Positions 1,727-26,145 of a stretch of DNA of 46,832 nucleotides are shown here, piece by piece. A program made the translations under genes and the position numbers. The DNA is from a virus. Lineage: Duplodnaviria; Caudoviricetes. Within the stretch, counting starts at the first letter, position 1, and every line of letters starts with the position of its first letter. Where the stretch lies: positions 1-46,832 of IMG/VR virus record IMGVR_UViG_3300020045_007640. One strand, 5' to 3'. Below the pieces are notes generated by a model. The model was not told where the DNA came from and did not search any database. It saw nothing but the letters and a program-made list of their open reading frames with translations.

Positions 1727-2179
1727 TTAAATATTCGGCACATGGACAAAAACCACGCCCGATTTTTTTCGTTTCCTTGCCATTACTTCTCCACCGTTTG
1801 ACTGATTTGTAAGCGATGTGTTCCCTTCAATTGTGTTAAAGGTAGTTGCATCCACCCATTGCACAAAAAGCCCTGTATGGTCATATCTGCCGCCACCATT
1901 CCAATCAAATAGAACAATATCACCTATTACCGGATCGTCTGTTATCCATCCCTGTTTTTTAAAGTATGCAAACCCTGTCTGACAACCGGCAAAACCTTTT
2001 GTAAATCCAATGTTCGGAAGTTTGCAATTTGCATGATGGTAAACCCAACTGACAAATATAGCGCACCACGGAAGACCATCAAGCCCAAACCATTTGCCGT
2101 ATTTTGTCTTATTAGAGTTTTTCGGGTTCTCAACAGTTCCGATTTCTTTTTTCGCTACGTTAATTATATCTGATCTCAT
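1727..2179 (-). CDS. CHAP-domain endolysin
   Basis: PWCAIFVSW catalytic Cys, GDIVLFDW, DHTG His, TIEGNTS. Confidence 0.9.
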   Translation of the reverse strand: MRSDIINVAKKEIGTVENPKNSNKTKYGKWFGLDGLPWCAIFVSWVYHHANCKLPNIGFTKGFAGCQTGFAYFKKQGWITDDPVIGDIVLFDWNGGGRYDHTGLFVQWVDATTFNTIEGNTSLTNQSNGGEVMARKRKKSGVVFVHVPNI

Positions 2180-2737: not shown

Positions 2738-3397
2738 TTATAAATGTTGAAGTCTGAAAATAGTATTCGGATTCAGTTTGCTCGGAATAAAAACCTTATA
2801 AGTATTCATTCCGTGTGTTGATATTTCGTATTCATACATTACTTTATACCTTAACCATAAAAAATCATAATATACCATTAACACAAACTGTCTTTTTAAG
2901 GTAAGATAATTACCAACGTTTGGCACAATGTTGATTCCCGATGGTGTTTCTGTCCATGTATCGGGGCCGTTTTCAGTGAAATTATCTACAAGTAATTTTG
3001 TCGTACCATCATCAAATGTAAATTCTATATTATACACTCCATAAATAACAGATGGATTGCCAATACCAACTAATTCGGATTTTGTCCGTTTAAATGTTGT
3101 TTTAAAGATGGTATCCTTATTAAAGCCCGTTTGGGTATGAATCCAACCGGTATCCGATGCAAGTTGATTGTTTTCCTGAATATACTTATTTCGGTCGAAA
3201 GTTTCACGCCTTACGCCCGCCCTGCTTCCATCAAGCCATTTGATTTCAATAAATGGTAAATCTTCGATGTAGGTCGCATAATCGACCTGGCGTTGTTCCT
3301 GTGGCTTTATTTCATCTTCTTTTGAACAATTAAACATTGCAATTAGTAAGCAACAACAAAATAATACTTGAATTAATGAATGTGATAAAGGTTTCAT
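2738..3397 (-). CDS. Lipoprotein
   Basis: Signal ending AMFN-C followed by SKEDE. Confidence 0.7.
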   Translation of the reverse strand: MKPLSHSLIQVLFCCCLLIAMFNCSKEDEIKPQEQRQVDYATYIEDLPFIEIKWLDGSRAGVRRETFDRNKYIQENNQLASDTGWIHTQTGFNKDTIFKTTFKRTKSELVGIGNPSVIYGVYNIEFTFDDGTTKLLVDNFTENGPDTWTETPSGINIVPNVGNYLTLKRQFVLMVYYDFLWLRYKVMYEYEISTHGMNTYKVFIPSKLNPNTIFRLQHL

Positions 3398-3426: not shown

Positions 3427-3780
3427 TTATTTCTTTTTCCAAATTATCTCCCGATATTCTTTACCGGGTTCTGTGAATGACTTATTGCACCGCATACAAT
3501 ATGAAGTAGTACTATTACATGCGGGGTGTACTATTTCAGAATAATTTTCATGATCTACAATATAACTCGGACAATAAAGTAAAGTAGTTGATCCGCTGCC
3601 ACTCATTACATGACCACGTTCTCGACAAATACTGGTGTCAGCCGTTATTACAAGATTTGTTCCATGATGTTCAAGTAAAATATTATTCGATCCTGATATT
3701 TGCATACCGCTATTACTAATGCCAATGTTACTTTGTGCAATTCCGCAAAAACTAAATAGAATAAAAATTAATGTTTTCAT
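3427..3780 (-). CDS. Secreted Cys-containing protein
   Basis: Short signal MKTLIFILFSFCGIA-Q. Confidence 0.6.
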   Translation of the reverse strand: MKTLIFILFSFCGIAQSNIGISNSGMQISGSNNILLEHHGTNLVITADTSICRERGHVMSGSGSTTLLYCPSYIVDHENYSEIVHPACNSTTSYCMRCNKSFTEPGKEYREIIWKKK

Positions 3781-3920
3781 TCTGTTGATTTTAGCGTTTC
3801 TTTGAAATTCTCAACATCGGCATGACAAACGATTTTCTGGTTTATTTTGCGAATGCTTTTCTTTCTTTCATCGGATAATAGATAATTACCAAATTGAGTT
3901 AATTGATCTTCTGTGTACAT
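3777..3920 (-). CDS. Small protein, 47 aa (MYTEDQLTQFGNYLLS...)
   Basis: Manually translated; ATGA overlap with downstream gene. Confidence 0.6.
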   Translation of the reverse strand: MYTEDQLTQFGNYLLSDERKKSIRKINQKIVCHADVENFKETLKSTE

Positions 3921-3945
3921 GATTTATGATTTAAGTGTGAAATAA

Positions 3946-4302
3946 TTAAGGTCGGATTGCCCAAAGTTTTTGAAGCAAATTGGTAGTATTTAACCATTGA
4001 GTATTGATTTCTCTAAACCTTACAAAATAGGCTTCTAATTGACTTTTGTAGTTGATTGAATCTATTTGATAAAGCGCTATAAGCGAATCAACATAATCAG
4101 GAAAATAACTTTCTGCAATGGTGTCAAGTTCAAAAAACCATTTTTCAGCAACGTTTTTGTATCTGGTGTCGATCTTGTTTGTTGATCCTAAATCGGTCAC
4201 TGTAATGGCTGACCAACTTTTTACATCGTTTACAACTGTTGTGTCTTCTCTTTGTGCTGTCAAAGAAAAAGAGAATAATAGTAAAATAAATATCTGTTTC
4301 AT
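3946..4302 (-). CDS. Secreted protein
   Basis: Signal MKQIFILLLFSFSLTA-Q. Confidence 0.7.
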   Translation of the reverse strand: MKQIFILLLFSFSLTAQREDTTVVNDVKSWSAITVTDLGSTNKIDTRYKNVAEKWFFELDTIAESYFPDYVDSLIALYQIDSINYKSQLEAYFVRFREINTQWLNTTNLLQKLWAIRP

Positions 4303-4307
4303 GTTTT

Positions 4308-4817
4308 TTATTTATAAGTGAAAATCTTAATATAACAATCTTTTAAAACTTCATCCCGATCATCAGGGTGTCTATAAGTATAAATTCCTAATGTACTTGA
4401 ATCTAACCAATCATATTGAACAACATAATTAAGTTGATCGCTTGGTACTTGATTTGATAAAATTACAAAGGTTTTATTTTCCGTAAACTTACTTGATGAT
4501 GTAATCGTATAACGTCCTGTTGTGTTATATGCCAGTGTAAATTCTTCGCCGTATGTATTTTTTAAGACCGTTTCAACAGGTGCATCCGTTCCCGTTTGGG
4601 TTAGTGACGCTTCCCAAATATAAGGCACATTTGTTGTTGTGGAATCCTGAAAAACATCTTCCCATGTTGTGCCATCATCTGAAACATAAGCCCTTATAAT
4701 GTAGGTCGTATCTGTGACACTTAACCGGTTTGTCGTTTCATGTCTTTCAATATTGAATCTTTGCGAAAAGCCCGAAAGACTAATTAAAATGAATGCGAAA
4801 ATTAATATATGTTTCAT
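4308..4817 (-). CDS. Secreted protein with phage fibre-tip-like beta domain
   Basis: Signal ...LSGFS-Q; ASLTQTGTDAPVETVLKNT...GRYTITSSSKFTENKT resembles C-termini of Bacteroidota phage fibre proteins. Confidence 0.6.
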   Translation of the reverse strand: MKHILIFAFILISLSGFSQRFNIERHETTNRLSVTDTTYIIRAYVSDDGTTWEDVFQDSTTTNVPYIWEASLTQTGTDAPVETVLKNTYGEEFTLAYNTTGRYTITSSSKFTENKTFVILSNQVPSDQLNYVVQYDWLDSSTLGIYTYRHPDDRDEVLKDCYIKIFTYK

Positions 4818-4822
4818 CTGTT

Positions 4823-7800
4823 TTATTTTACTCTTTTAACTGATAAATTAGCGTTATAAATGTTTATTGTTGCCCCGGAAGTTCCGCCTGTGTTTTGGTA
4901 TTTTAATTCTATGTAATCGGATGCGGTAAGGTCAACTATTATGTTTCTTGAAATTGCCGTTAAGTTTGCAACGGTATTATCTGCATTTCTTGACCTTACC
5001 TGGCCGTGATAACCTAAACTTGAACCATTTTTGTAAAGTTCTGTATATTGCGATTGAGTATATTGACCGCCCCCATCAATAGGATATTGAAAAGTCATAG
5101 AGTAAGATATTTCATAAGTCCCGGTACTTGGTACGGTAATTCTTTCTGTTGATGCGTCGGCATCTACTATATTTTCATACACCTGCGAAAACGTTATAGT
5201 TCTGAAAGTAGCATCAAAAGTCAATCCTGTTAAATTTCCGGTATTATAAAGTTCTCCGTATTCTACTTCGTTGTTTATTGTGTAAGTTGGTGCCGTTGCT
5301 CCGCCTGTAAGATTTGATGTTCCGTTTGTGCCTGCTACAATATTAAACAAACTGCCTGACTGTATTTCAAATAATTGTGAATCTGAATCGTCATCGCTTA
5401 ACGAATATGCCGGATATGACCATGTCCATGCCGTTCCCGATCCTGTTGACTGAATATATTGACCACTTGCACCACTTGTTGCCGTACTTGAATAAGTACG
5501 ATCTCTAAACCTTACATTTGCATTTACGTCCAATGATTGTGAAGGTGTTGTGGTGTTTATTCCTAACCTGTCATTTGTGTTATCCCAATACATGTTAGCA
5601 TCTGAACTTATTGAAGTTCCGGAATCCCAAAACGCTACTCTTGTAGCTGTACCTGTTCCGGTTACTAAACCCAAATTTGATGAACTTCGCCACGCTACCG
5701 TATTACTTGCACTTTTGGCAAAGATATTATTTGCTGCACCTCCTGAACTTGCATCATCTACAATTGTACTTCCGTTGTCTAAATAAATAGACTTTGCATC
5801 CAAATGAAGTGCAAACAAAGGATCAGCTACATTAAAACCTAAACCATCTGAATCATATTTTATATTCGTATCGTCTATGTTAGTTGAAGATGTCCAATAA
5901 GTCATATAATTAGCGGCTCCTGTTCCTGTTACCGTCCCCGCTGTTGGTGTTATCCAATCCGTTGCTGCTCCGGTTGTACTCAAAACCTGACCAGAACTAC
6001 CTAAATCATTATTTGAATCATAAAACCCACCTGTTAACCTTTGCGATCCTGTTACATGCAATGTTGCCGAAAGTGACGCAAAAGCCGTATTTATCCCGAA
6101 TCTATTTGTACTCTGATTTGCTTTTACAAGTTCCCCAATAAAGATACCGTTTGACCCTGTTTCTAAATAACCCGCCAATGCTCCCAAAAAGATATTATTT
6201 GACCCTAATGCAGATTTACCCGCCCAACGTCCTACTGCTACATTACCAGCTCCTGAAACTAAAGAATTAAGAGATTGCTCACCTATCTCAACGTTATCAT
6301 AACATGACGTACATTGAAACATCGCATAATTCCCGATCGCTCCGTTGTTAATGCCTGTTGTAAGTGAGTAAAGAGTTTGAAAAGCAATACCAAAGTTGTT
6401 AGTTCCCCCTGATCCTGTTGATCCTGCAGAACGTAAAACGTCTTTACCAATGGCTGTGTTGTTTGTGCCGTTTACGTGTCCTGCACCCGTTCCTATGCTT
6501 ATCCCATTGGAAGGAAACGCACTCCCTAAACCTAATCGTAACCCTACTGAATTTTCATCATAAGGTAAATTAAAAGTATGTGTACTTCCTGAACTACTTA
6601 TAGTGAATCCTGTACTTGCTGTTGATGTGGCAAAAGTTTGAGTAGCGTTTGTAAGTCCATTTAATGACCCTAATTTACTGTTGAATGTAGTCCAATTTGC
6701 AGCCGTTAATAACCCCCTGTTTGATGCACTTGCGCTTGGAAGGTTTAAAGTGATTGTTCCGGATGTCGTAATAGGTGACCCTGAAATATTTACATCCGTT
6801 CCGCTTGTTCCTGTTGTTAATCCTACACTTGTGACCGTGCCTGTTGGTATTGTTTGCCTACCTATTGCCCCCGCTGCTGTTATGGTCATCATGTCCGTTA
6901 CTGATCCGGTAAGCCACGGAAAATAAAACGAATTAATTGCCGTACTTGTTGCATTTCTTAATATCTCAAAAGCATTTGCACCGTTTGAGTTATTATCTAA
7001 TTTCGTACCTAAAACAAAACCGTTATTTAATAGACCTGTTCCTGTACCCATAAACCATTGCTTCTCATTTGTTCCCTCTCCTGTGTCAGTAAACCATAAT
7101 GCTGTATTTGTACTTGCTGATAAATGTAGTTTGCCCGCCGGTGACGTTGTGCCTATCCCTATGCTCGTGCCATCGTTCCAAAGCGAAGACGTTGCTACTA
7201 ATGTGTTTGTTCCTGAAAAACGTGTCGTTTGGCTTGTTGTGCCTGTGATTAAATCCTGTTTTAAAGTCAGATCATAAGGTGTTGCAACTTCCAAACTATC
7301 TGCGCTTACAGTCCATGTGTTTACAGGACTTTCCGCTACATTAATACCCCAACCATCATCTACAATTGTGCTGTCAATGCCACTTATAATAGTTTGCAAA
7401 CTGTCATGAATCAAATCCATTACATAAACCGAATCAATGTCAATCTTAACCCTATCTAAAAATAAATCTGTCATAATTATACCACGTCCGCCCCTTATCT
7501 CCATGTCTTCGGCTAATGTGTTTGAGTTTAAAATTATATAATTGCCGGTTGTACTTATAGACAAATCTCCTTCGTTACCCACCTGAGTATCATCACTCAT
7601 TACGTTCCAATATGAACCATTCCAAACCCTTAAATCACCCCCAACAGTTGACCAAATATCATGTACCTGTGGATTAGGCACGTCCGAATAAGACGGATAT
7701 TCAATGTCTGTATAAACTCTTGTTTTATAGGCAAAACCATCACCATCTCTTAAAACTATCAGACTATCCCCCTGCAAATAAATAGAATCCACTCCGTCGG

Positions 7801-8185
7801 TATCTTTGAATTTTATACTATTACCCCCTGCAATAGTTATCGTAAAAACCCTATCCAATGAATCTATACTTAAATTTTGATTGTCGGTATTATCTAAATA
7901 CGGAACTAAACTTACAGTTCCGTCACCATCTCTTAAATAAATAGTGTTGCCTGTACGGTAAATTGAATCTGGATTTGTAATAAAACCATCAAAGTAAGTT
8001 GTATCAACGTGCTGATATAACCAAATTGAATCCGCTAAGTTTTCATCCCATACTTTATATGTTGCTCTTAAAAATCCATTTTCGTATGTACTGCCTTGTA
8101 TTGATGTCGGGTCAATTCCCTGACTTTTCGCACCTGCAAAAATGAATAAAAACCAAATTATTAAGATATATTTAAAATGTGTCAT
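4823..8185 (-). CDS. Tail-fibre/adhesin-like protein, 1120 aa, with signal peptide and C1q/TNF-like C-terminal domain
   Basis: Signal ...FAGAKS-Q; GIGTTSP/GINTTTP repeats, GTVTSV motif, N-x-A-I-G beta-roll repeats, C-terminal GTYEISY...VDLTASDYIEL. Confidence 0.7.
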   Translation of the reverse strand: MTHFKYILIIWFLFIFAGAKSQGIDPTSIQGSTYENGFLRATYKVWDENLADSIWLYQHVDTTYFDGFITNPDSIYRTGNTIYLRDGDGTVSLVPYLDNTDNQNLSIDSLDRVFTITIAGGNSIKFKDTDGVDSIYLQGDSLIVLRDGDGFAYKTRVYTDIEYPSYSDVPNPQVHDIWSTVGGDLRVWNGSYWNVMSDDTQVGNEGDLSISTTGNYIILNSNTLAEDMEIRGGRGIIMTDLFLDRVKIDIDSVYVMDLIHDSLQTIISGIDSTIVDDGWGINVAESPVNTWTVSADSLEVATPYDLTLKQDLITGTTSQTTRFSGTNTLVATSSLWNDGTSIGIGTTSPAGKLHLSASTNTALWFTDTGEGTNEKQWFMGTGTGLLNNGFVLGTKLDNNSNGANAFEILRNATSTAINSFYFPWLTGSVTDMMTITAAGAIGRQTIPTGTVTSVGLTTGTSGTDVNISGSPITTSGTITLNLPSASASNRGLLTAANWTTFNSKLGSLNGLTNATQTFATSTASTGFTISSSGSTHTFNLPYDENSVGLRLGLGSAFPSNGISIGTGAGHVNGTNNTAIGKDVLRSAGSTGSGGTNNFGIAFQTLYSLTTGINNGAIGNYAMFQCTSCYDNVEIGEQSLNSLVSGAGNVAVGRWAGKSALGSNNIFLGALAGYLETGSNGIFIGELVKANQSTNRFGINTAFASLSATLHVTGSQRLTGGFYDSNNDLGSSGQVLSTTGAATDWITPTAGTVTGTGAANYMTYWTSSTNIDDTNIKYDSDGLGFNVADPLFALHLDAKSIYLDNGSTIVDDASSGGAANNIFAKSASNTVAWRSSSNLGLVTGTGTATRVAFWDSGTSISSDANMYWDNTNDRLGINTTTPSQSLDVNANVRFRDRTYSSTATSGASGQYIQSTGSGTAWTWSYPAYSLSDDDSDSQLFEIQSGSLFNIVAGTNGTSNLTGGATAPTYTINNEVEYGELYNTGNLTGLTFDATFRTITFSQVYENIVDADASTERITVPSTGTYEISYSMTFQYPIDGGGQYTQSQYTELYKNGSSLGYHGQVRSRNADNTVANLTAISRNIIVDLTASDYIELKYQNTGGTSGATINIYNANLSVKRVK

Positions 8186-8336
8186 AAATGTGTTTAATTA
8201 ATCGCAATGGCCATAAAATAAGCAATACTACAAAAGCTAAAACAAAATTCCAAAATCCTTTATTACTCGGATATTGATACAAAAAGTCTACCGAATAAAT
8301 CAAACTACAAAACAAAGATATATAAAAATATGTCAT
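8172..8336 (-). CDS. Small two-TM membrane protein, 54 aa (MTYFYISLFC...)
   Basis: Manually translated; overlaps both neighbours. Confidence 0.55.
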   Translation of the reverse strand: MTYFYISLFCSLIYSVDFLYQYPSNKGFWNFVLAFVVLLILWPLRLIKHIYDTF

Positions 8337-9988
8337 ATCAAACGAATTATTATAGTTGCATTTGTTTGTGAAAAGGCTAATAAAAGTTTTCCATCTGCCT
8401 TTACTCCGTATGTGTTTGCTAATGATGGAACTCCTGAAACATAAGTGTAAACAGATCCATTTACCGTTACTTCTATTTCGCTAACATAGTCCACTACATT
8501 TAAAAGACTTATTCCATAAGTAGTAAACTCCGTACCTGTTGAACGTGCCAATACTACCGTTGTGCTATTTGCTGTTGGTGGTAAGTAAATATACGTTTCT
8601 TTTGAACATGTGCCTTCGGTTACCGTAAGCCAATAAACCCCCTTACCTGTTGCCGTTGCTGTTGATCCTGTTCCTATGGTGACCCTTCCTCCTGTTTCAT
8701 CTTCTTCATACTCCCATAAATAAGTCGGAGTACTTGCATCGGTGTCGGCCGTTAAGGTATTGCCGGTACGGTCTATGTCTACCGTAAAATCACAATTACT
8801 TTCTTCGTTAAAAGTAATAAAAACCCCACCCGATTTAACACAATCACAAGCCGTAACTCTTACAAAATAAGTTCCTGTTTCAGATACTTCAAAAGGTAAA
8901 CTTGTAGCAACTTCCGTACCGTTTAGAATTACGCTTATTTCTTCTACACATCCATCCGGAACATTAGATATATCAGCATTTACAAAATTGCCCGAAGCGT
9001 AAACCCTTACAGTTAATAGAGCGCAAACATTGTCTTTAAAATAACTTGCTGTTGCTTTACACCCATCTATGATAACATCAACTCTATAATTGCCGGGCGT
9101 AAGAATATCCAAATAGGTAGCTCCCGATATAAAAACGCCATCTTTGTACCATCTGTAAACCTTTGTGCCTTCCGGTTCATCTGTGAAAGTAACTGTTAAT
9201 TGGTCATCGGTGTTTACTATCTCTATCGCATAGTCATTACACCCATCGCCTGAACCTTCACCATCCGGGCTATTTATAGTGTCTAAGTCTATGTCTTCAC
9301 AACACGCATCCCCTTCCTGAAGATTAATATATTCAAAGCTGACCTTAAATTCAGCCATTACGGTATCAACTACTGAACTTTCCCAATCGAAGTTTTTTAT
9401 TTCGGTTCCGTTAAAATAGTTTGTATCGTTATTTTTCAATCCATCCAGAAAAGCCCCGAATCCTTTCGGTTGTAAAAACCAAAAGTTCTGCCTTGTAATC
9501 TGTCTTTGTACTTTTCTTTGTTCGCCTTCAGCCGTAATTATAGTGACATAAGTAGTGTTACTTGTTGGCGTGTCCTGTTGCGCTGCCGGCATGTGAACAT
9601 ACAATACTCCAGGTTCTGTTTCCCACGGCCAAAAGTTATTAGAACAACTATTTCCTGTTGATAAGAAGTCGTAACAATCCGTAAATTGAATCCAGTCAGA
9701 ATAGTAGGTGTCACCATCAATGACCATCTTAATATAACGCCTGTCTCCTTCAGTTCCGCCCCCTGACGTTACTCTTGTGCCTGTTAGGTCAATTTCTTTA
9801 AGTGTCCATGTTTGCGGACTTAATGTCATTGCGGTTTCAGCACCGGCACTGTCTACTAAAACAGCACTTGATACCGTACCATAAACAATATAGTTTACAA
9901 AGTTAAGTTTGTATAATGCTGTTGACCTGACCTTATCGGCTGTCTTATGCCACGTGAACGGATTATATGGTCCAAAGTTTTTATACAT
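8333..9988 (-). CDS. Tail protein: distal-tail-like N-terminus plus Cys-paired Ig-like repeats
   Basis: YRWYKDG...GNYRVDV...GC, GTYFVRVTAC, GVYWLTVTEGTC repeats; position before fibre. Confidence 0.55.
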   Translation of the reverse strand: MYKNFGPYNPFTWHKTADKVRSTALYKLNFVNYIVYGTVSSAVLVDSAGAETAMTLSPQTWTLKEIDLTGTRVTSGGGTEGDRRYIKMVIDGDTYYSDWIQFTDCYDFLSTGNSCSNNFWPWETEPGVLYVHMPAAQQDTPTSNTTYVTIITAEGEQRKVQRQITRQNFWFLQPKGFGAFLDGLKNNDTNYFNGTEIKNFDWESSVVDTVMAEFKVSFEYINLQEGDACCEDIDLDTINSPDGEGSGDGCNDYAIEIVNTDDQLTVTFTDEPEGTKVYRWYKDGVFISGATYLDILTPGNYRVDVIIDGCKATASYFKDNVCALLTVRVYASGNFVNADISNVPDGCVEEISVILNGTEVATSLPFEVSETGTYFVRVTACDCVKSGGVFITFNEESNCDFTVDIDRTGNTLTADTDASTPTYLWEYEEDETGGRVTIGTGSTATATGKGVYWLTVTEGTCSKETYIYLPPTANSTTVVLARSTGTEFTTYGISLLNVVDYVSEIEVTVNGSVYTYVSGVPSLANTYGVKADGKLLLAFSQTNATIIIRLI

Positions 9989-11700
9989 TATTTCTTAACT
10001 TTAAAGTTAATTGTTTCTCCTTCAAGTTCTATCTCATCTATTATCCATGTTCCTTTTCCTGTTTTATCCAACTTGATCGAATTGCCAGGATTAATCTTAT
10101 TGAATAATTTTACCTTACCGAATATCTTAACATCGGCACTTAATCCTACTGAATAACCTAAAAATGTAGTTGCATTACCATCATGAAGACCCTGTTTTAA
10201 AGGTCTGTTTTTGAAGTGGCAATTTGTTACGATGTTCTTAATTGAAAGTCCGTTATTTAGTCCTATGATTGAAGTTCCGTCTGTTGAAAGTATGAAAAAC
10301 AGTTTTTTATAATTGTCGTTATCGTACAAATCATTATTCAATGCTCCAAAAACATCAGTAAGAAATAGTTCTGATTTTACCGTAATTTCGTTTACATCTG
10401 AATTTAACTGATAATTCTGATAGTCTATTTGGGTTTTATAAAATCCTTCCGTCACTGTTGGTTGTGCCATTAACCACGTTTCAATATTAACCTGGTCTTT
10501 GTTGACTTCCACATCATCACTGAACTCATAGCTTATTTCCTGTGTTCCTGTGTCAATGCCTTTGTTCTGATAGTAGGTGAAGTGTTCCCACCTGATAACA
10601 TCTGCAATATCATCATAAATTAATAGCATTCCAAAAAGTTTGTTAAACTCTAAGACCAAATTTTTAGCTTTAACGATTCCGGACCTTCCAAAACTATCCT
10701 GAATTTCGTTCTCCCGAATAATGTCGTATGATTGTGCAATTCTCAAATCCTGTAAGAAGTTTAATGAATATTCATATTCTGTGTTTTCTGGTGCCGTTCC
10801 ATCTGGATTAATGTTTAGAAAATTGCTTACTAATAGTTTGTCGGTACACTCAAATATATCTTCAAAGATTTCAGAAAACGGATAAGTATTACTTATCGGA
10901 GTGTCAACATAGGTGTTATATTTGCCTGATTCCCACAAAATCTCATCATAATAAGTGTTTACGTTAAATTCATCACTTGCAGAGTATGTGTTAAATTGTG
11001 GCACACCCCAAAATATCTCAGGAAAAATAGATAGGAAAAACCCACCGGACGGGAGCGTTATCCAGTCTGGCGATAATTGTGTAGCTGAAAATGCACCAAC
11101 ATAAGTTACAAATATTGTGCAATTATGACCGATGTATGTTTCTATTCCTGCATTCGATGTGTCAAATGTTGGTGTAGCTGTGAGAATAATGTATTCCGGA
11201 AAGAATCCCAAAGCTGAACGGTCAGGAATACCCCCGACAATTCCTAAAACTTGATTTAGTGTTATAACTACCGAATTATCACCAAAATAACTAACAGCTG
11301 CGAAAGAGTATGTTTCCCTTTCTAAATCCCCTTGAACTGTTTCTATTGCGGCTGCCGTGTAATCAAAAATATTAATCGTAATGTCTTTGATGCACTCAAT
11401 GACTGACTTAAATTTTAGTTTCTTTTCAGCATAACACGCCTTAAAATTAAATGATCCTTCATTGTGGAGTATGTACCCATCATAAATAATCTCATCTTCG
11501 CCACATTGAACGGTAAATTCTGCCGGTTCTTCTGTGTTTCCTGCCATTGTTTCTTTTAGTAAGTCTAAATAACCTGAATCTTTGTCAAATTTCGCATCAC
11601 TATCAATGGAAACAACTACCCCAAAGTCATCTATTTTTTTAGATAACTTATAGTCCTGAACGGTTGTTATATGCCCTAATGATGTTAATTCTACTTTCAT
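9988..11700 (-). CDS. Putative tail tip/hub protein
   Basis: Size, acidity, position, IRWEH motif and terminal OB-like strand pattern. Confidence 0.5.
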   Translation of the reverse strand: MKVELTSLGHITTVQDYKLSKKIDDFGVVVSIDSDAKFDKDSGYLDLLKETMAGNTEEPAEFTVQCGEDEIIYDGYILHNEGSFNFKACYAEKKLKFKSVIECIKDITINIFDYTAAAIETVQGDLERETYSFAAVSYFGDNSVVITLNQVLGIVGGIPDRSALGFFPEYIILTATPTFDTSNAGIETYIGHNCTIFVTYVGAFSATQLSPDWITLPSGGFFLSIFPEIFWGVPQFNTYSASDEFNVNTYYDEILWESGKYNTYVDTPISNTYPFSEIFEDIFECTDKLLVSNFLNINPDGTAPENTEYEYSLNFLQDLRIAQSYDIIRENEIQDSFGRSGIVKAKNLVLEFNKLFGMLLIYDDIADVIRWEHFTYYQNKGIDTGTQEISYEFSDDVEVNKDQVNIETWLMAQPTVTEGFYKTQIDYQNYQLNSDVNEITVKSELFLTDVFGALNNDLYDNDNYKKLFFILSTDGTSIIGLNNGLSIKNIVTNCHFKNRPLKQGLHDGNATTFLGYSVGLSADVKIFGKVKLFNKINPGNSIKLDKTGKGTWIIDEIELEGETINFKVKK

Positions 11701-14439: not shown

Positions 14440-15714
14440 TTAAAATTGTTGTTCTTTACCGTGTGAACTGTCAAATATTGATTCAGTGGTTAATCTTCTA
14501 AACCCGTATCTCATGCCATCCATAAGGTGATTAAACTTATCAATAGGAATTGATGCCTTTTTATCATTCCAAATATAGTTATCAAATTCAGTTTTAAAAT
14601 TAGTGCTTTCAGGATCAAGTATTATCTCATAAAGTTTGATTGCCCGAACGTCATCAACTATTAATCCTTTTACAGCATTTTGAATATTAAACCCTAATTT
14701 CTGAACGCTCGTTTTTGTACGTGGCTCCGATGTATCACATACAATAAGTTCGTTTTTTCTAATTCCTACGCCTGCCAAAGCTGATGCAACGTCATTAACC
14801 ATTGTGGCGTAAATCTTATCTTTGACGTATATCTTTTTATTTCGGGTATCAACTGCAATTTTACCTACTGCCAAAGGATCGGGACTATAACCCCAATCTA
14901 AGTGATAACAATAAACCGGCAATGATTCATTAAACTTACCTATGGTATAATCAAATATTACTCCTTCGGCACGCTCTAACCATCCACCAATATAATTAAA
15001 ATAGTAATGTGATTTGTATTTTGCGCCCTTTTCCTTTTTTTCGGCTTCTTCGGCTTTTAACTTGTAATCGTTTGCTTTGTATATCCAATTTGCATTCAGA
15101 TAATTAAGTTCTACGGCAATATGATAAGTGGTATGTATATGTTCGACATTTGGATTAGTTGAAACTGTCACATCATATCCGTAATAATCCTTTGTGGTTA
15201 GTGTGTCTTTTATCCATCGCTTATAAATGAAATGTTCTCTTGTTGATGGGTTTTGAATCCAGATAACTCTATTTTGAATCCCATTTACCCTTATTGAATC
15301 ATCAATGGTATCAAATGCCTTTTCATCATGGAAGTCTTCACCTTCATCAATTACCCATGTTGTTATTCCTGCAATACTTTTTAAATGTGCTGTTTGGTTT
15401 CCGGAACTTGTTTTTATTCCTGAAAAATAAATAAAAGACTTTGTTTCGTTATTGGTGATTAAGGTTTGAGTTATTGTAAAATGATGCTCAATACCTAATC
15501 TTTCAAGTGTTTTTTTAAACTCCGGAATTATAGACTTTTCAGCAGATGTCATAGTATAACGAGTAAACAAAATTCCATGACCCTTTTCAAATGTCAATCT
15601 CGCAATGAAGTCATGAACCGTTGTACTTTTTAATGATCCCCTGCCCCCCGTGACCAATATGTAACGACGCTTAGTTGTGTATAGTGGTAAAAAGTGTTCA
15701 TTTATTTTGGTCAT
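14440..15714 (-). CDS. terL: Terminase large subunit, PBSX family
   Basis: Walker A GGRGSLKS, Walker B WVIDE, nuclease LDWG and NHLMDGMRY. Confidence 0.95.
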   Translation of the reverse strand: MTKINEHFLPLYTTKRRYILVTGGRGSLKSTTVHDFIARLTFEKGHGILFTRYTMTSAEKSIIPEFKKTLERLGIEHHFTITQTLITNNETKSFIYFSGIKTSSGNQTAHLKSIAGITTWVIDEGEDFHDEKAFDTIDDSIRVNGIQNRVIWIQNPSTREHFIYKRWIKDTLTTKDYYGYDVTVSTNPNVEHIHTTYHIAVELNYLNANWIYKANDYKLKAEEAEKKEKGAKYKSHYYFNYIGGWLERAEGVIFDYTIGKFNESLPVYCYHLDWGYSPDPLAVGKIAVDTRNKKIYVKDKIYATMVNDVASALAGVGIRKNELIVCDTSEPRTKTSVQKLGFNIQNAVKGLIVDDVRAIKLYEIILDPESTNFKTEFDNYIWNDKKASIPIDKFNHLMDGMRYGFRRLTTESIFDSSHGKEQQF

Positions 15715-17628: not shown

Positions 17629-18267
17629 TTATCATGGTTTTACAAGTTTCAAATAATGGTAAGAACTCAAATATCGGCATCCTGTTTATGTATTCTATTG
17701 AATAACCTGTCTTTTTTACTACAAATATATTCATTTTTTCGTATGTGTCACGTATTTCGTTTTCGTTTGGCACTCTTAACTCTGTTGCTCCGTCTCCTTT
17801 TTTATAAGGCTGTAAACGTTTCTGAACTCTGGTATTAACTCGCTTACCAACAAAAAAAAATCACTTATCGGTATATTGCCCCAATCATCATATTTGGCTT
17901 TTATCATTTCATCTGTAAAAAGGCTTATGTCTTCACCTTCAGTATTGCAGAATAAAGCGCAAAATCTTATTATCTTCGGTTCGCTTGTTTGAGTGTAATT
18001 ACCTATTCCCGCTATTAGGTTTTGGGTTTTTATTTTGAGTTTTTCTATGTCGTTAAACGTGATCTTGTTCAGATTTAACTCACCCATGCTTTTACTTATT
18101 TCTACTAATGAATCATAGAAAGTCTTGAAGTCAGAACCAAAAGCCAACATTAAAGAAAGGATTTCATACTCCCTGAATCTTTTTGTGCTGATTGTGTCGG
18201 CTTCAATCTTATAGACCTTTCCTGATATTCCGGTAAATTGTTTTAATTCGTAATTTATGCGATTCAT
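17618..18267 (-). CDS. Predicted -1 frameshift extension (gpGT-like) of tail assembly chaperone
   Basis: -1 frame open from about 17861 to TGA at 17618; slippery A AAA AAG at 17803-17797 and T9 at 17860-17852. Confidence 0.6.
17776..18267 (-). CDS. Tail assembly chaperone (gpG-like)
   Basis: Size, helical content, slippery sites near 3' end, tail region. Confidence 0.6.
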   Translation of the reverse strand: MNRINYELKQFTGISGKVYKIEADTISTKRFREYEILSLMLAFGSDFKTFYDSLVEISKSMGELNLNKITFNDIEKLKIKTQNLIAGIGNYTQTSEPKIIRFCALFCNTEGEDISLFTDEMIKAKYDDWGNIPISDFFLLVSELIPEFRNVYSLIKKETEQQS

Positions 18268-18467
18268 TAAGGGTTTTTGCGTTTGTTAAATATCCACTTA
18301 CTTTCTTTAAGTAGTTTTTCTAATCCTGGGTTTTGTGTTGATGTGTCGAATACTGCCACATGTCTTTTGCCTATTTCAACAAAATCTATATGTCTTTTAC
18401 CTATTACTGCTATTTTCAGGTTTTCTTTTTCCGAATTTACCCAATTTTTTATACCGTTTTTACTCAT
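18267..18467 (-). CDS. Hypothetical protein
   Basis: Translationally coupled ORF. Confidence 0.6.
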   Translation of the reverse strand: MSKNGIKNWVNSEKENLKIAVIGKRHIDFVEIGKRHVAVFDTSTQNPGLEKLLKESKWIFNKRKNP

Positions 18468-18715
18468 TTTACTTTATTTAAATAATAAATCAATAACATA
18501 CTTGTAGGCAAAATAAGAAAATCAGATCCGTTTAAAATCATCACTATTGCCGCATAACCACAATGACAAAGGTCACATGTCAGCACCTTGTGTAAAATAG
18601 GGTGTGAATCTTCAATCGGTATTAATGCCCTGTTGTATGATGAAAATATTTCATCTGGCTGTCTCATTAGCCAAAACCATTTAGCTATTATTACGGGAAT
18701 TAGGTATTCAATCAT
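18464..18715 (-). CDS. DUF1360-like membrane protein with CxxC (start likely 18715)
   Basis: Hydrophobic helices around KVLTCDLCHCGY. Confidence 0.55.
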   Translation of the reverse strand: MIEYLIPVIIAKWFWLMRQPDEIFSSYNRALIPIEDSHPILHKVLTCDLCHCGYAAIVMILNGSDFLILPTSMLLIYYLNKVK

Positions 18716-19022: not shown

Positions 19023-19053
19023 TTTAAACTATTAACAATTGTAAAATTATCTG

Positions 19054-20318: not shown

Positions 20319-20320
20319 CA

Positions 20321-20533
20321 ATGTCAAAAATACCAAATTTGTCAGGAATTAAAGTAAGGATAGAAAACGAAATTGGCGGTTTTATTTACTTTGAATTTTA
20401 CGATACACACGCTTATGTCACATTAAAAGTAGATAAAAGCGAAGATATACGAAGATATGAAACGAATGACGCAATTCAACTTTATAGGTATTGTAGGCAA
20501 AAAGTAATTCAATCTACATATCAAAATAAATAA
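20321..20533 (+). CDS. Plus-strand small hypothetical protein
   Basis: Starts 2 nt after previous gene; converges on TMP stop. Confidence 0.6.
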   Translation: MSKIPNLSGIKVRIENEIGGFIYFEFYDTHAYVTLKVDKSEDIRRYETNDAIQLYRYCRQKVIQSTYQNK

Positions 20534-23500
20534 TACTACCGTTTTCGCCTTGTGGAATGTCTTTTAAAATAGCTGCCTGTTTCCCTGCTTTGGTCTTAAA
20601 CGGAACCCATTGTTTTAAAGGTAATTGATTGACATTATTAACAATTGTATTGTTTACGGAGCCTGTTTGTACATCATTTCTAAACCCTTTGTTTATGTCC
20701 AGAACTTCGGCAATATCGAAATTGTATTTACCGGCTCTTAGTCCTTCAAATAGTTTTCTTTGTTTGTTGGTCGTTTCTTCATCAAATAACCATTCACGCC
20801 CTGATATTATTACATTGGTGTCGTGTCCTGAAACTGCGTCAACTACCCTGTAACCTTGCCCCCTTCCATGTATGTCAGATGCTCCGCCAGGCGCAACTTC
20901 ACCAATATAATCATCAATACGCCTTGCACCGCTTGATAATCTTGTGGCTTTTAATGCTTCGATTTTATTCTTAACAAAGAACGCCCCTAAAGCTGCAACG
21001 GCTGCAATTCCCAAAGGTAAACCGATGATAGGAATATTTGAAAATCCTTTTATTATGTTTATTCCTGCTGTGATTAATGATTGACCCTGTTGCACACTAT
21101 CAGCTAATATTTGACGTCTTTGCGCTTCTTTTTGTATTTTGTCCTTTTCTTCTGTTAGTCGGGTTTCTTCTGCCAAAAGGCTGTCTACTTCAGTTTGTTT
21201 TACCGAAGCGGAGTTTGCCAGATTATCTTCTTGTAATTCCAATTCATGATCCAGATCATCTTCTGCTTTTTCTCTCCTTTCTCCTAATCGGTCAAGTTGT
21301 TTGTCTATGGCTTCAATTTGAATGTCGTTTGCTTCGTTTAGTAAGTTTCCAAATTCATTAACAAATGACCCTAAACCTTTGAAAAACTCTTTTGCTTTGT
21401 CAGAATTTCGATCTCCGAAAATATCATCAAACATTGAATTAAAAAGGTCTTCAAAATTGTTGATTCCTTCTAATATCTGACTGTCATCAATTTCTATGTC
21501 TGTTTTTGCAGGAACTATTGTAAGTTCAGGAACTTTGACCTTTAACGGATCTTCTGATTTAATACCTTCGTTTCCTATCTTTTCGATTTCCGATTGTATT
21601 TGTGCCTGTAAATCTTGGGTATTTATTCCAAATTTTAACTCTGATAATTTTAGTTCTTTTAATCTGTTTTCAAGTATGGTAAGTTCTTTGTTTGCTAATC
21701 TTGTGCTAAGTGGTAATTTTTCGATAGGCTCGAATGTTGACGTAAAGTCACGTGCTGAAATGCCGTTAATCATCTCTTGAAGATTATTAAACTCTTTACT
21801 TACATCTTTGCCGGTTATCTTCGCAATTTTAGTAAGTTCTGTTTGAAACTCTTTTAGTTGGTCAATTTGCTTTTCTTTGATTAACTCAAACTTTTCTTTA
21901 TCATTTAATCCACCGTTTTCATTTATGGAATTAAATAACTCATCCTGAATAGATTTAAATTTCTTTAATGCTTCTTGTGTTTTTTTGTCACGTTCCTGTC
22001 TGTCTTTTTCGGCTTTGTCTGCTAATTCTTTTGACCTTGCTGCATTGAAAACCGCAATTTCATGTTTCTTTTCTTCTATCTTTTCAATGTCAGCACGTTG
22101 TAACTCTAAAGATTTAAGTTCATTCTCTAATATTTCTTTTCCAAGTTTGGCAGTTTCTTTGCCCCCTGCCTTTAATATTTCTTCTCTTTTCTTTTGGTTT
22201 TTTACCATTGCGTCAATTTCTTTAGCCAGAATTTTGTCGGCTCTTTCTTTTTCGCCTTCTGCAAAACCTTCTTCAAACGCTTTGCCGGCATCCTTTCCGA
22301 TGTTTTTAAACGATTCTAACGCTCCTGAAAAGTCACCACTGAACAATTTACCTAAACTGTCACCTACGCCCCCAAAAAAAGATTCTATTGCCCTACCGGC
22401 TCCGGAAACAGCACTACCTATTTTATCAAAATTATTATAGAGATATTCCAGACCTTTTACTAGTAAGTTTAACGGCGGTATGAAAAAGGTTATCTTCTTT
22501 CCAAATTCAAATATTGCCCCCGCATTTTCGGAAACTGATTTTTTTACTTTGTCCCAATTACTAATCAAAACACCCAACCCAATAACTAACAATCCTATTC
22601 CTGTCGATGCTAAAGCGATTCTAAACAGTTTTAACGCTCCTGTTGACCCACCTACGACCGCTGTATATGCCCCTTGTGCGATTGTAGCGGCTTTTGTGGC
22701 TAATCCGCCCCTTTGTGTCAATATTGTGCCGGCTTGCTGTAATCCGTTTGCAATAGCCATTACAGCGTTTAATTTTACAAGTTGTTTTTGTAGGTCTTCG
22801 CTTTCATCACCAAATAAAGCGGCTGCACCTTCTGCTATCTGAAAACCTGCACCAATGCCGTTAACTCCTTCGGCAAATAAATCTAATGCTCTGGTATCGG
22901 AACTTAATTTTTTTATCTGTGTCCTAACGTCGCCAATTTCATCCGTTAATCTTGCGGCTCTTTGGGTAGCTTGTACAAGTTCATCTCCTGTTAACTGACC
23001 GGAATTTATAAGACTTGTAAGTTGTCTTAATTCGGTTTTTGCGCTTATAAACTTGCCTGTTGTTTTTTCAGCATTGGCGGCCAATTGATTAAATTCATCT
23101 GATTGAATATTACTTACATTTTGAGCAACTTCTTTTATGTTATCACTCAAAAACTCAATTTGCTGATCAGTTAGTTTTACTTTTGACAATAGGTCCGTAA
23201 ACTCGTTTTCTATGTCCTGAATATTTGCAGAAACTCCTTTTAGTTTTGCGTCTTCCAACTTCTTAAATAATGCTACTAATTTTTGTCCGGTTCCTTCACT
23301 CTTTGCAATGGCCATTGTAATATCTGCAATGTCTTGCTTTTGCTTTTGCATTGCTTTACTTTCGTTAATAGTTGCCTGTGTGACCTGATCAATACTTTTA
23401 GCGGCTTTCTGATTAGCCTGAACTAAATCGTTCCCGATTGCTTTTGTCGTTTGATTGACTTCTTTTTGCATGGCATCAAAACCATGTGCAACTTTGTCAA

Positions 23501-23576
23501 CTACCGGATTGATTGCCTGAATTTTGTTTATAAAATCCGAATCATCCAGAATTAATCTTTGAATTATATCGCTCAT
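20514..23576 (-). CDS. Tape measure protein
   Basis: 1020 aa helical; KLFRIALASTGIGLLVIGLGVLISNWD hydrophobic segment; C-terminal glycine-rich motif. Confidence 0.85.
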   Translation of the reverse strand: MSDIIQRLILDDSDFINKIQAINPVVDKVAHGFDAMQKEVNQTTKAIGNDLVQANQKAAKSIDQVTQATINESKAMQKQKQDIADITMAIAKSEGTGQKLVALFKKLEDAKLKGVSANIQDIENEFTDLLSKVKLTDQQIEFLSDNIKEVAQNVSNIQSDEFNQLAANAEKTTGKFISAKTELRQLTSLINSGQLTGDELVQATQRAARLTDEIGDVRTQIKKLSSDTRALDLFAEGVNGIGAGFQIAEGAAALFGDESEDLQKQLVKLNAVMAIANGLQQAGTILTQRGGLATKAATIAQGAYTAVVGGSTGALKLFRIALASTGIGLLVIGLGVLISNWDKVKKSVSENAGAIFEFGKKITFFIPPLNLLVKGLEYLYNNFDKIGSAVSGAGRAIESFFGGVGDSLGKLFSGDFSGALESFKNIGKDAGKAFEEGFAEGEKERADKILAKEIDAMVKNQKKREEILKAGGKETAKLGKEILENELKSLELQRADIEKIEEKKHEIAVFNAARSKELADKAEKDRQERDKKTQEALKKFKSIQDELFNSINENGGLNDKEKFELIKEKQIDQLKEFQTELTKIAKITGKDVSKEFNNLQEMINGISARDFTSTFEPIEKLPLSTRLANKELTILENRLKELKLSELKFGINTQDLQAQIQSEIEKIGNEGIKSEDPLKVKVPELTIVPAKTDIEIDDSQILEGINNFEDLFNSMFDDIFGDRNSDKAKEFFKGLGSFVNEFGNLLNEANDIQIEAIDKQLDRLGERREKAEDDLDHELELQEDNLANSASVKQTEVDSLLAEETRLTEEKDKIQKEAQRRQILADSVQQGQSLITAGINIIKGFSNIPIIGLPLGIAAVAALGAFFVKNKIEALKATRLSSGARRIDDYIGEVAPGGASDIHGRGQGYRVVDAVSGHDTNVIISGREWLFDEETTNKQRKLFEGLRAGKYNFDIAEVLDINKGFRNDVQTGSVNNTIVNNVNQLPLKQWVPFKTKAGKQAAILKDIPQGENGSIIYFDM

Positions 23577-24618: not shown

Positions 24619-25038
24619 CTATGGTTTGAAATGCGCATAGGCTTTAATCTGATTGCTCATTGTTCCTGCTCCCACCCATTTAAATCTGTAATACGGTGCT
24701 ACCGGAAGACCTGCCGTTGATATAATCGGTATCTGATAGATTTTACTGTTAGTAGCCTGATCAGCAGGATAGAACGGTGCTAATGTTGCCAAAGTATCAT
24801 AATTTGTACCATCTACTGAATACTGAAGCTGAATTTTACCGGCTGTTGTTCCTGATATTTCAGTACATACGATTTGAAACATTGCGCTCTTATAAGAACC
24901 TGCAACGGTCAAAGTAAGGTATTCGGTTGCCGAATTTACAACGGTATCGAGTGCCGGTGAAAACCTGAATATTTTTTGTGCAGAAGTGTCAACTGCAAAG
25001 GTCATTAAAATGCCTATAATTAAACTGAAAATTTTCAT
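24619..25038 (-). CDS. Capsid decoration/spike-like beta-sandwich protein with signal peptide
   Basis: Directly after MCP and before the terminator; LQYSVDGTNY and PYYRF motifs; signal ...VDTSA-Q. Confidence 0.6.
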   Translation of the reverse strand: MKIFSLIIGILMTFAVDTSAQKIFRFSPALDTVVNSATEYLTLTVAGSYKSAMFQIVCTEISGTTAGKIQLQYSVDGTNYDTLATLAPFYPADQATNSKIYQIPIISTAGLPVAPYYRFKWVGAGTMSNQIKAYAHFKP

Positions 25039-25071: not shown

Positions 25072-26145
25072 TTATGCTCCTGCAATGTTTTCAATCTTCA
25101 AAACTCCCTGCCTATCATCACAATTAGCCAGATTCGTAACCATTGCAGCTCTGATGATATATTCATAATTCCATCCCCAACTTAGAGACTGAACTGCTGA
25201 ACCTTCGCATACTCTTTTCGCTCTTACGTCAATATAAATAGGGTTCATTTGCCCGTTTGCAAAATATTGAAGTCTTGGTAAGGTGTCTCTCCAAATGTAC
25301 GTATCGGTTGTCATTAACATTGGCGACATGTCGATATAATCCGGTGCTGACCAGAATATCACTGCATTTTTGTCAATCGCCAATGTGAAATAACCACCCA
25401 AAGTTGAATCCATATTATGCAGATCATAATAAACCTGAAAACCTGAACCATTCAACACTGAATCATTATCACAACACGCAATCCCTTTGAACTGTGCTAA
25501 AAACGCTTCTGTGTAGAAATTCGTACCATTTAAGATCAACGGGCTTGACATTTTTGTGATGCCGGCTGCCGTTCTTATATCCCCTATCAAGTCGCTTTTC
25601 CAATTTGCGTCAACTACCTGAAAAGTATCTGAACTTACCGTTCCTTCAGTACGCCTAAACCACGCTGCCAAAGGATTATCTGCGATACTTGACATTCGTG
25701 CAATAAGCAATTGAGATATTTTTACCTCAAGTTTAGCTTTAGCAACCAATGAAGCATAAGCCGTTTTTTCTGCAAAACTGTGTGCATTGTGACAATCACG
25801 GTCATAAACGGTAAAGTTTATTTTTGCGATGTTTGACTTTGTTAAGTCTAAAACTTCACTACCCAACTCCGCCCCTACGTCAATTGCACAACTTTGAGTT
25901 AATGTAGATTCAACTGCCAAATCACATGCTCTGATAGCTGATGCCTTTGCAGATACGCACTTTTGACCGATACCATCACCCGTACCGAGTACTTGTATGT
26001 TTGGGTCCTGATGTGCCAAAATCGCCTGTCCTGCAACAATCGAAGTGTTTAATTCTGAAATTCGGGAAGTAGTTAAGAAATTCTGTTCAGCAACAATAAC
26101 GTCACCCATTGTAGAATCGCTAAAAGTCCCTGGAGTATATGCCAT
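25072..26145 (-). CDS. Major capsid protein
   Basis: 357 aa after scaffold-like gene; ends GVLKIENIA. Confidence 0.7.
   Translation of the reverse strand: MAYTPGTFSDSTMGDVIVAEQNFLTTSRISELNTSIVAGQAILAHQDPNIQVLGTGDGIGQKCVSAKASAIRACDLAVESTLTQSCAIDVGAELGSEVLDLTKSNIAKINFTVYDRDCHNAHSFAEKTAYASLVAKAKLEVKISQLLIARMSSIADNPLAAWFRRTEGTVSSDTFQVVDANWKSDLIGDIRTAAGITKMSSPLILNGTNFYTEAFLAQFKGIACCDNDSVLNGSGFQVYYDLHNMDSTLGGYFTLAIDKNAVIFWSAPDYIDMSPMLMTTDTYIWRDTLPRLQYFANGQMNPIYIDVRAKRVCEGSAVQSLSWGWNYEYIIRAAMVTNLANCDDRQGVLKIENIAGA

What the first reader, a model, noticed from the sequence alone, without database searches (positions are those of the whole stretch)
3427..8336. Virion-type late genes carrying Sec signal peptides: candidate periplasm-matured fibre system
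Seen: in the slot where tail fibres belong (after tail-tip genes, before lysis) four genes begin with basic-hydrophobic signals cleaving before Gln: 8185 (AKS-Q), 4817 (GFS-Q), 4302 (LTA-Q), 3780 (GIA-Q). A small 2-TM gene precedes them. The 1120-aa protein has trimeric fibre-like repeats and a C1q-like tip but no evident T9SS tail or autotransporter barrel, and I see no other long fibre gene. Known: SPI cleavage before Gln (pyroglutamate Q-rule) marks Bacteroidota exported proteins, while tailed phages assemble in the cytoplasm. Inference: fibres or appendages may be exported, folded in the periplasm and added to particles at lysis, or displayed by the infected cell. I am not aware of either being described for such phages.
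Basis: partly seen in the sequence, partly recalled or inferred. Interest (0 to 1): 0.85.

Follow-up and report, generated by a model that had tools for sequence, protein, structure and literature searches.

The report
Exported phage fibre and capsid cement
An uncultured tailed phage of Bacteroidota-type bacteria starts its only long tail-fibre-like protein, three small neighbours and a capsid-cement-like protein with bacterial export signals that relatives keep, so these outer virion parts are likely matured in the host periplasm and would join the particle only at lysis, unlike the cytoplasmic assembly known for tailed phages.

Summary
The four leaders are real: 4 of 69 ORFs pass a signal-plus-Gln rule, against 9 of 13,800 shuffles. 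The fibre's leader recurs right after the tail-tip gene in 3 of 3 close relatives.

It has a predicted jelly-roll like BPP-1/Pam1 cement. 48 of 55 homologue clusters carry the leader, including cultured phage Pan5, and 3 leaderless homologues sit in the same slot.

The fibre has a C1q/BclA-like tip and no T9SS or autotransporter hit. All 10 of its Bacteroidota O-glycosylation motifs lie in residues 22-310 (2.5 expected; region chosen after looking; no excess in distant phages). Cultured phi18:3 has three leader-plus-Gln proteins annotated as MS/MS-detected structural.

Export is very likely. Attachment to virions at lysis is inferred (about 0.62), and the complex prediction could not be run. 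The 2-TM gene is not conserved, and 3427-3780 is probably separate.

Q-rule phage genes are in print, read as host-membrane modifiers. I found no paper on exported virion parts. The scan noted this theme before on other DNA (93 findings, at least 89 genomes).

The parts
4823..8185 (-). 1120-aa fibre-like protein: leader 1-21 (8123-8185), Gln22, conserved N-terminal block (likely virion anchor), motif-rich region 22-310, GIGT/GINT-type shaft repeats, C1q/BclA-like tip (about 975-1120)
4308..4817 (-). 169-aa protein, leader 1-18, Gln19; unnamed viral fold, possibly a fibre-tip or short appendage; leader-bearing homologues in two other phages
   Evidence: L083; L132, 199 aa
3946..4302 (-). 118-aa protein, leader 1-16, Gln17; 4 glycosylation motifs against 0.55 expected; no homologue found in loci held
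3777..3920 (-).
3427..3780 (-). 117-aa protein, short leader 1-15, Gln16, six Cys; probably an accessory exported gene, link to the fibre not shown
8172..8336 (-). 54-aa membrane protein (one strong, one weak hydrophobic segment); absent in G002 and G003, replaced by an unrelated soluble ORF in G026
8333..9988 (-). 551-aa leaderless tail-tip protein: Dit/tube-type domain, three Ig domains, C-terminal tail domain; candidate docking site for the fibre
9988..11700 (-). 570-aa leaderless protein, likely tail hub (by position and conservation only)
24619..25038 (-). 139-aa capsid-cement-like jelly-roll, leader 1-20, Gln21, invariant D31-T32 motif; homologue of Pan5 gp7 'cement protein'
25072..26145 (-). 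357-aa leaderless probable major capsid protein (full-length profile match to the Pan5 capsid family, prob 60%, pairwise E 8.5e-5)
20514..23576 (-). 1020-aa tape-measure protein, leaderless
2738..3397 (-). 219-aa predicted lipoprotein (SPII-type leader) between the fibre block and the lysis genes; role unknown
1727..2179 (-). CHAP-domain endolysin, marking the lysis cassette

Best explanation
The phage likely sends its outer virion parts (the long C1q-tipped fibre, the small 169- and 118-aa proteins and the capsid cement) through the host's Sec system into the periplasm, where they would mature and would join the cytoplasm-built particle only when lysis opens the inner membrane. Shown: the leaders, the +1 Gln, their conservation, the gene slots, the fibre and jelly-roll resemblances, leaderless core head and tail proteins, and the motif clustering. 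Inferred from established Bacteroidota biology: signal peptidase I cleavage, pyroglutamate formation, and O-glycosylation at D-S/T motifs in the periplasm. Inferred only: trimerisation there, retention in the periplasm (no T9SS tail or barrel found), docking of the mature N-terminal block on the 551-aa tail-tip protein, and cement binding to the capsid after lysis. A likely gain is host-made modification (a blocked N-terminus, a glycan coat on the proximal shaft and capsid) and keeping sticky adhesins away from assembly.
For: Leaders far above chance. The first long gene after the 551-aa orthologue has leader+Gln in 3 of 3 close relatives: G002 (490 and 1302 aa), G003 (716 aa), G026. All 5 database homologues of the fibre's first 300 residues carry one. 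The fibre's residues 22-80 were found in 1 of 301 Saprospiraceae-family genomes, on a phage contig behind the tail-tip gene. No other long fibre-like gene lies in the window. In G005, G017 and G019 every gene of 200 aa or more between the hub/distal-tail genes and the lysis genes has leader+Gln. Cement family: 48 of 55 clusters have a leader, 3 have it behind a fused domain, 3 are leaderless and 1 is broken. All 8 upstream genes I scanned are head proteins. Leaderless L090 is sister to leader-bearing L092 (100/96). The model is a jelly-roll (pLDDT 86.5), Z 8.0-8.7 to BPP-1, KHP40 and Pam1 cements. Motifs D-S/T-[AILVMT]: 18 against 9.4 in the five mature proteins (p 0.009), 17 against 15.3 in 11 leaderless structural proteins, reversed motif 2 against 2.6. 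In cultured phi18:3, 3 of 12 MS/MS-annotated structural genes examined carry leader+Gln.
Against: No experimental data for this phage. The cement fold match is generic: cements do not stand above unrelated jelly-rolls (top Z 9.8). Motif excess is not general: whole fibre 10 against 7.4 (p 0.2), with the 22-310 window chosen after looking; 19 leader proteins of distant phages 56 against 49.3 (p 0.18); phi18:3 proteins have 1 each. G002 and G003 also encode leaderless fibre-type genes and an adaptor-like gene, so there the leader proteins are not the only candidates. 6 of 18 cement-family records have no leader+Gln gene in the tail-end block. The leaderless 551-aa protein has Ig domains and could itself bind the host. 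MS detection in phage preparations can reflect co-purifying material. phi18:3 was not among the fibre's tblastn matches.
Confidence: 0.62

Rival explanations
1. The proteins are exported host-surface cargo (adhesin-like morons) displayed by the infected cell or lysogen and are not virion parts.
For: Matrishin et al. read Q-rule genes of Porphyromonas prophages this way (PMC10367356, passage). Bdellovibrio MAT fibres are leader-bearing trimeric surface adhesins with phage-like shafts and TNF-like tips (PMC10769870, passages). Two of the fibre's hits (P0029, P0030) look like bacterial surface fibres. Some relatives are proviruses (G005; G208 on a 288-kb contig).
Against: No tyrosine integrase in the record. 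No T9SS tail or barrel hit. The N-terminal block was not found outside a phage contig in 301 genomes. It does not explain the leader on a cement-slot gene with leaderless counterparts, nor phages whose tail-end genes all carry leaders.
Confidence: 0.17
2. The proteins are exported as soluble decoys or receptor blockers that mask host receptors on cell debris at lysis or exclude superinfection, without joining the particle.
For: Lectin/C1q-like tips and small size of three of the proteins; position beside a lipoprotein and the lysis genes. Receptor blocking by phage envelope proteins such as T5 Llp is recalled, not tested.
Against: A 1120-aa shaft with a conserved N-terminal block tied to the tail-tip gene, and strict placement of the jelly-roll gene at the capsid gene across unrelated capsid families, fit structural roles. 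It may still hold for the 117- and 118-aa proteins.
Confidence: 0.11
3. The leader is a membrane tether or timing pro-peptide: the proteins are virion parts but assemble on the cytoplasmic side and never cross the membrane.
For: Some cement homologues have the hydrophobic segment behind a fused 70-aa domain, and some capsid proteins of related phages begin with a hydrophobic segment. PMC10367356 suggests phage proteases remove such capsid leaders.
Against: The small-x-small/Gln cleavage pattern is kept across very diverse homologues. The motif excess in this clade points to exposure to a periplasmic enzyme (PMC12871550 passages).
Confidence: 0.1

Closest known systems
Cellulophaga phage phi18:3 (Pachyviridae, KC821620) gp085-gp087
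   Same: Adjacent late genes with leader+Gln in a cultured Bacteroidota phage, annotated as structural from MS/MS.
   Different: No sequence match to the window's fibre was returned; no motif excess; the record does not mention the leaders.
Pan5 gp7 'cement protein' (ON968456) and LS06-2018-MD05 gp76 (OP947161)
   Same: True homologues of 24619-25038 (33-34% identity), directly after the capsid gene, both with leader+Gln.
   Different: The Pan5 name is a prediction; the paper's main text has no occurrence of 'signal peptide' or 'cement'; the phages are filed under non-Bacteroidota hosts.
Jelly-roll capsid cements of BPP-1 (3j4u_H), KHP40 (7dou_4), Pam1 (7eel_H)
   Same: Fold (Z 8.0-8.7) and, for the slot after the capsid gene, general phage knowledge.
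   Different: 6-12% identity, matches not above unrelated jelly-rolls; these are taken to assemble in the cytoplasm (recalled).
Bdellovibrio MAT (mosaic adhesive trimer) fibres, PMC10769870
   Same: Signal peptide, about 1,000-aa mosaic shaft with similar repeat loops, TNF/C1q-type tip.
   Different: Bacterial chromosomal surface proteins defined by a 130-aa N-terminal domain; the window's N-terminal block is phage-linked; no S74 hit.
Q-rule genes of Porphyromonas gingivalis prophages (proposed Nixviridae), PMC10367356
   Same: Phage genes with SPI leaders exposing Gln.
   Different: Five genes of unknown function, read as host outer-membrane modifiers, not as fibres or cement.
Inovirus pIII/pVIII (M13) (recalled)
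   Same: Virion proteins made with Sec leaders and added to the particle at the envelope.
   Different: Filamentous extruded phages with membrane-anchored subunits; here a lytic tailed phage with soluble appendages.

Membership tests
Bacteroidota Sec/SPI Q-rule substrates | Basic n-region, hydrophobic h-region, small residues at -3/-1 | tested here: met
   Own rule, not SignalP
Bacteroidota Sec/SPI Q-rule substrates | Gln at +1 | tested here: met
   All five proteins; invariant in 7 of 7 close cement homologues and 3 of 3 fibre N-termini
Bacteroidota Sec/SPI Q-rule substrates | Cleavage and pyroglutamate formation in vivo | not testable with these tools
   Needs N-terminal MS; rule from PMC5837995 (abstract)
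Bacteroidota O-glycoproteins | D-S/T-[AILVMT] motifs in a non-cytoplasmic protein | tested here: met
   18 against 9.4 pooled (p 0.009); 117-aa protein has none; no excess in distant phages
Bacteroidota O-glycoproteins | Glycan attached | not testable with these tools
   Needs glycoproteomics
Phage tail fibre / receptor-binding protein (1120 aa) | Gene between tail-tip and lysis genes | tested here: met
Phage tail fibre / receptor-binding protein (1120 aa) | Shaft similar to known fibres and a trimer-type tip domain | tested here: met
   (tip matches are below curated cut-offs)
Phage tail fibre / receptor-binding protein (1120 aa) | Homotrimer | not tested
   Fibre was not folded
Phage tail fibre / receptor-binding protein (1120 aa) | Attached to the tail of the virion | not testable with these tools
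   Needs virion MS or cryo-EM; complex prediction could not be run
Jelly-roll capsid cement (139 aa) | Small jelly-roll fold | tested here: met
   generic match
Jelly-roll capsid cement (139 aa) | Gene at the major capsid gene | tested here: met
Jelly-roll capsid cement (139 aa) | Sequence relation to a solved cement | tested here: inconclusive
   No cement among 5 weak PDB hits
Jelly-roll capsid cement (139 aa) | Binds the capsid surface | not testable with these tools
   Needs cryo-EM
T9SS cargo | C-terminal T9SS sorting domain | tested here: not met
   No Pfam or NCBIfam hit; the C-terminus is the C1q/BclA-like domain
Trimeric autotransporter adhesin | C-terminal beta-barrel anchor | tested here: not met
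   No Pfam or NCBIfam hit
MAT fibre family | Conserved 130-aa beta-rich domain right after the signal peptide | not tested
   No direct comparison with MAT sequences; the window's block was phage-linked

The most novel reading that the evidence does not exclude
A widespread class of tailed Bacteroidota phages builds its virion in two compartments: bare head and tail in the cytoplasm, and fibres plus capsid cement in the periplasm, where the host caps them with pyroglutamate and, in this clade, its own O-glycan. The particle is finished and armed only at lysis and leaves wearing host sugars.
Probability: 0.45. Interest if true: 0.9.

Novelty: new variant of a known kind. Interest (0 to 1): 0.74.

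Why it matters
Tailed phages are taken to be finished in the cytoplasm, and signal peptides are routinely used to rule out a virion role. If fibres and cement are exported first, there is a second assembly compartment, lysis becomes an assembly step, and virions could carry host-made glycans that affect host range, stability and recognition. It would also change how receptor-binding proteins of Bacteroidota phages are annotated and expressed. The cement homologue gives a direct test in cultured phages (Pan5, LS06-2018-MD05).

Tried and rejected
- No close relatives among cultured phages for the capsid or portal protein.
- Single-protein and small-alignment scans for the 551- and 570-aa tail proteins in viral contigs found nothing.
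- The fibre has no sequence match in the PDB and no whole-protein PHROG, Pfam or NCBIfam hit. The capsid alignment has no PDB match.
- A complex prediction of the fibre N-terminus (three copies) with the 551-aa protein was not run because the queue was full: no verdict.
- No sequencing run was listed for the region, and no RNA holder was listed.
- The 54-aa membrane gene as a dedicated export or assembly factor: rejected, not conserved in G002, G003 or G026.
- Glycosylation as the general reason for export: not supported beyond this clade (phi18:3).
- Mis-called starts: rejected.
- Pan5 virion MS: shown only as a ring in Fig. 2, which is not readable here; a term search of the one supplement found no 'mass spec'.
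- The cement tree is too poorly resolved to say whether the leader is ancestral (17 of 51 branches open).
- Literature searches for exported virion parts gave no relevant paper among the listings. Two hits were checked by passage and were irrelevant. Subscription papers and bioRxiv supplements were not searchable, including the original Cellulophaga proteomics paper.
Full report
Context. The window is a whole IMG/VR virus record (G000, 46,832 bases, linear, 87% complete by CheckV). The genes I annotated lie on the minus strand: terminase, portal, tape measure, CHAP endolysin, Erf, primase and helicase are identified by PHROG or Pfam. No tyrosine integrase was found. Gly-Tyr/Ser repeats at 73-151 and about 44,320-44,440 suggest circular closure at about 44.3 kb. 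The last 2.4 kb (62% GC in the 45-46 kb bin) and the first 77 bases (an inverted copy of 1331-1407) look like assembly artefacts (inference). A capsid relative lies in a MAG titled Saprospiraceae, whose second 11-kb contig carries the tail block; both contigs are all phage, so co-binning is possible. A more distant relative lies on a 288-kb contig of another genome drawn from that family. The host is likely Bacteroidota, probably Saprospiraceae.

Observation. The four leaders are as described. My rule (basic n-region, hydrophobic core, small -3/-1, Gln +1; not SignalP) passes 4 of 69 minus-strand ORFs, 0 of 111 internal Met starts and 9 of 13,800 shuffled N-termini. The slot is as described. 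The 551-aa upstream protein models well (pLDDT 84.9) as a tube/Dit-type domain, three Ig domains and a C-terminal domain also seen in phage tail structures, all at middling Z of 7.3-9. The 1120-aa protein matches virion and tail-fibre proteins in 14 cultured-phage records over residues 542-744. It ends in a C1q/BclA-like domain by three weak, concordant tests. No T9SS or autotransporter domain is detected. The 54-aa membrane gene is absent in G002 and G003 and replaced in G026, so it is not part of the system. A 47-aa leaderless ORF separates the Cys-rich 117-aa gene, for which no homologue was found in the loci held; its link is doubtful.

Conservation of the fibre leader. In the three close relatives that hold the 551-aa orthologue and downstream DNA (G002, G003, G026), the first long gene after it has leader+Gln. 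All 5 database hits to residues 1-300 carry one too. Residues 22-80 were found in 1 of 301 Saprospiraceae-family genomes, on that phage contig, so this block looks phage-linked rather than a host surface module. Against: G002 and G003 also carry leaderless adaptor-like and fibre-type genes behind the leader genes, and the distant G208 prophage has a leaderless 1313-aa tail gene beside a leader-bearing homologue of the 169-aa protein.

24619-25038 follows the probable capsid gene (profile match to the Pan5 capsid family, prob 60%) and begins with a leader ending TSA-Q21. It is homologous to Pan5 gp7, annotated 'cement protein', and to LS06-2018-MD05 gp76; both have leader+Gln. Over all loci then held there were 86 rows in 55 clusters at 80% identity: 48 with a leader, 3 with the same segment behind a fused 70-aa domain, 3 leaderless and 1 broken. 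I scanned the upstream gene in 8 of these, including all 3 leaderless cases: 5 are PHROG major head proteins and 3 belong to the Pan5-type head family. Leaderless L090 is sister to leader-bearing L092 (100/96; L095 left out as broken). The model is a jelly-roll (pLDDT 86.5) with Z 8.7, 8.4 and 8.0 to the BPP-1, KHP40 and Pam1 cements, tied with unrelated jelly-rolls. One family in one capsid slot, with and without leader, is the best argument here that a leader does not exclude a virion role.

Wider family. Of 18 cement-family records whose tail side I fetched, 8 have leader+Gln genes of 200 aa or more after the tape-measure/hub block, 6 have none, and 4 stretches did not clearly reach the block's end. 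In G005, G017 and G019 every such gene before the lysis genes has a leader (gene roles by position). My rule gave no leader to the capsid, tape-measure or hub genes in these records.

Glycosylation motif. Bacteroidota glycosylate D-S/T-[A/L/V/I/M/T] in non-cytoplasmic proteins (PMC12871550, passages). The five mature proteins hold 18 motifs against 9.4 expected (p 0.009); 11 leaderless structural proteins hold 17 against 15.3. All 10 in the fibre lie in residues 22-310 (2.5 expected; window chosen after looking; whole protein p 0.2), and the 118-aa protein has 4 against 0.55. D31-T32 of the cement is invariant in 19 of 19 aligned sequences, and a motif lies near the domain start in 45 of 55 clusters. 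The excess is not general: 19 leader proteins of distant phages have 56 against 49.3, and phi18:3's three have 1 each.

Experimental foothold. Following a lead from earlier scan notes, I fetched 22,000-71,443 of phi18:3. Of 12 genes annotated structural by MS/MS, 3 adjacent ones (gp085-087) carry leader+Gln. This is record annotation, not the paper, and co-purification is not excluded. Pan5 is a purified siphophage with a 149-nm tail; its MS result is in a figure I cannot see (PMC9837993, passages and supplement term search).

Mechanism. Head and tail cores are leaderless and would be built in the cytoplasm. Fibre, small partners and cement likely cross the inner membrane by Sec, are cut before Gln and cyclised (PMC5837995, abstract), and in this clade are likely O-glycosylated. 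Lacking a detected outer-membrane export signal, they would wait in the periplasm and bind the particle once the inner membrane opens at lysis. Late attachment of tailspikes to finished particles is recalled for P22. Confidence 0.62; rivals are surface display (0.17), decoy or blocker (0.11) and a cytoplasmic tether (0.10). The complex prediction that would have tested docking could not be run.

Prior art. Matrishin et al. report five Q-rule genes of unknown function in P. gingivalis prophages and read them as host-membrane modifiers (PMC10367356, passages). Bdellovibrio MAT fibres are exported phage-like trimers on a bacterial surface (PMC10769870, passages). Inovirus coat proteins have Sec leaders (recalled). 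Six searches listed no paper on exported fibres or cement of tailed phages; coverage is open-access only. The scan itself has 93 notes of this theme in at least 89 genomes and several on leader-bearing cement, none by sequence or place for this genome; these are not independent evidence. Verdict: real, conserved, likely exported virion appendages; a new variant of known parts with an undescribed route; interest 0.74.

Noticed in passing
L032 (Pan5, ON968456) 5945-6346, 18042-22086; L033 (OP947161) 14869-15282: Pan5 (filed as a cyanophage) and LS06-2018-MD05 (filed under Rhodobacteraceae) carry leader+Gln genes and share their capsid family with Polaribacter phages P12002L/S; they may really infect Bacteroidota in the host cultures.
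   Followed up: partly
L066:6526-7200, L080:9665-10324, L093:9686-10324; P0036, P0037: Cement homologues in which a 70-aa head-module domain is fused ahead of the hydrophobic segment and Ala-Gln, giving a signal-anchor form that could tether head parts to the membrane.
   Followed up: partly
L040:7849-9306, L069:7998-9479: PHROG major head proteins that begin with a basic stretch and a hydrophobic segment.
   Followed up: no
L107:7391-8788; L114 (568-aa ORF): Genes in the distal-tail slot that start with a lipoprotein-type signal.
   Followed up: no
L035-L062 (several): 255-276-aa cement homologues; the four checked (G014, G015, G022, G023) hold two tandem copies of the domain behind one leader.
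   Followed up: partly
L029:721-13970 (G004): A second, different tail module (tube-like, tape-measure-like, 2138-aa leader-bearing fibre) lies upstream of this family's head block, which has its own tape-measure homologue; either chimeric or a two-module genome.
   Followed up: no
window:16708-16995 and 2738-3397: Two predicted lipoproteins; the 95-aa one (7 Cys) is conserved in L008, G001 and G004 within or next to the structural block.
   Followed up: partly
window:1-187 and 44300-46832: Record ends look artefactual: inverted copy of 1331-1407 at 1-77, and high-GC DNA joined at a Gly-Tyr repeat; the phage probably closes at about 44.3 kb.
   Followed up: partly
window:25072-26145, 23573-24532, 8333-9988: Leaderless structural proteins carry many conserved cysteines (six invariant in the capsid alignment, including a CC pair), suggesting disulfides formed after release.
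   Followed up: no
window:2424-2735 and 18708-19022: Two small membrane genes look like paralogues (shared WWYY/KWYY and FNKDIH motifs, seen by eye).
   Followed up: no
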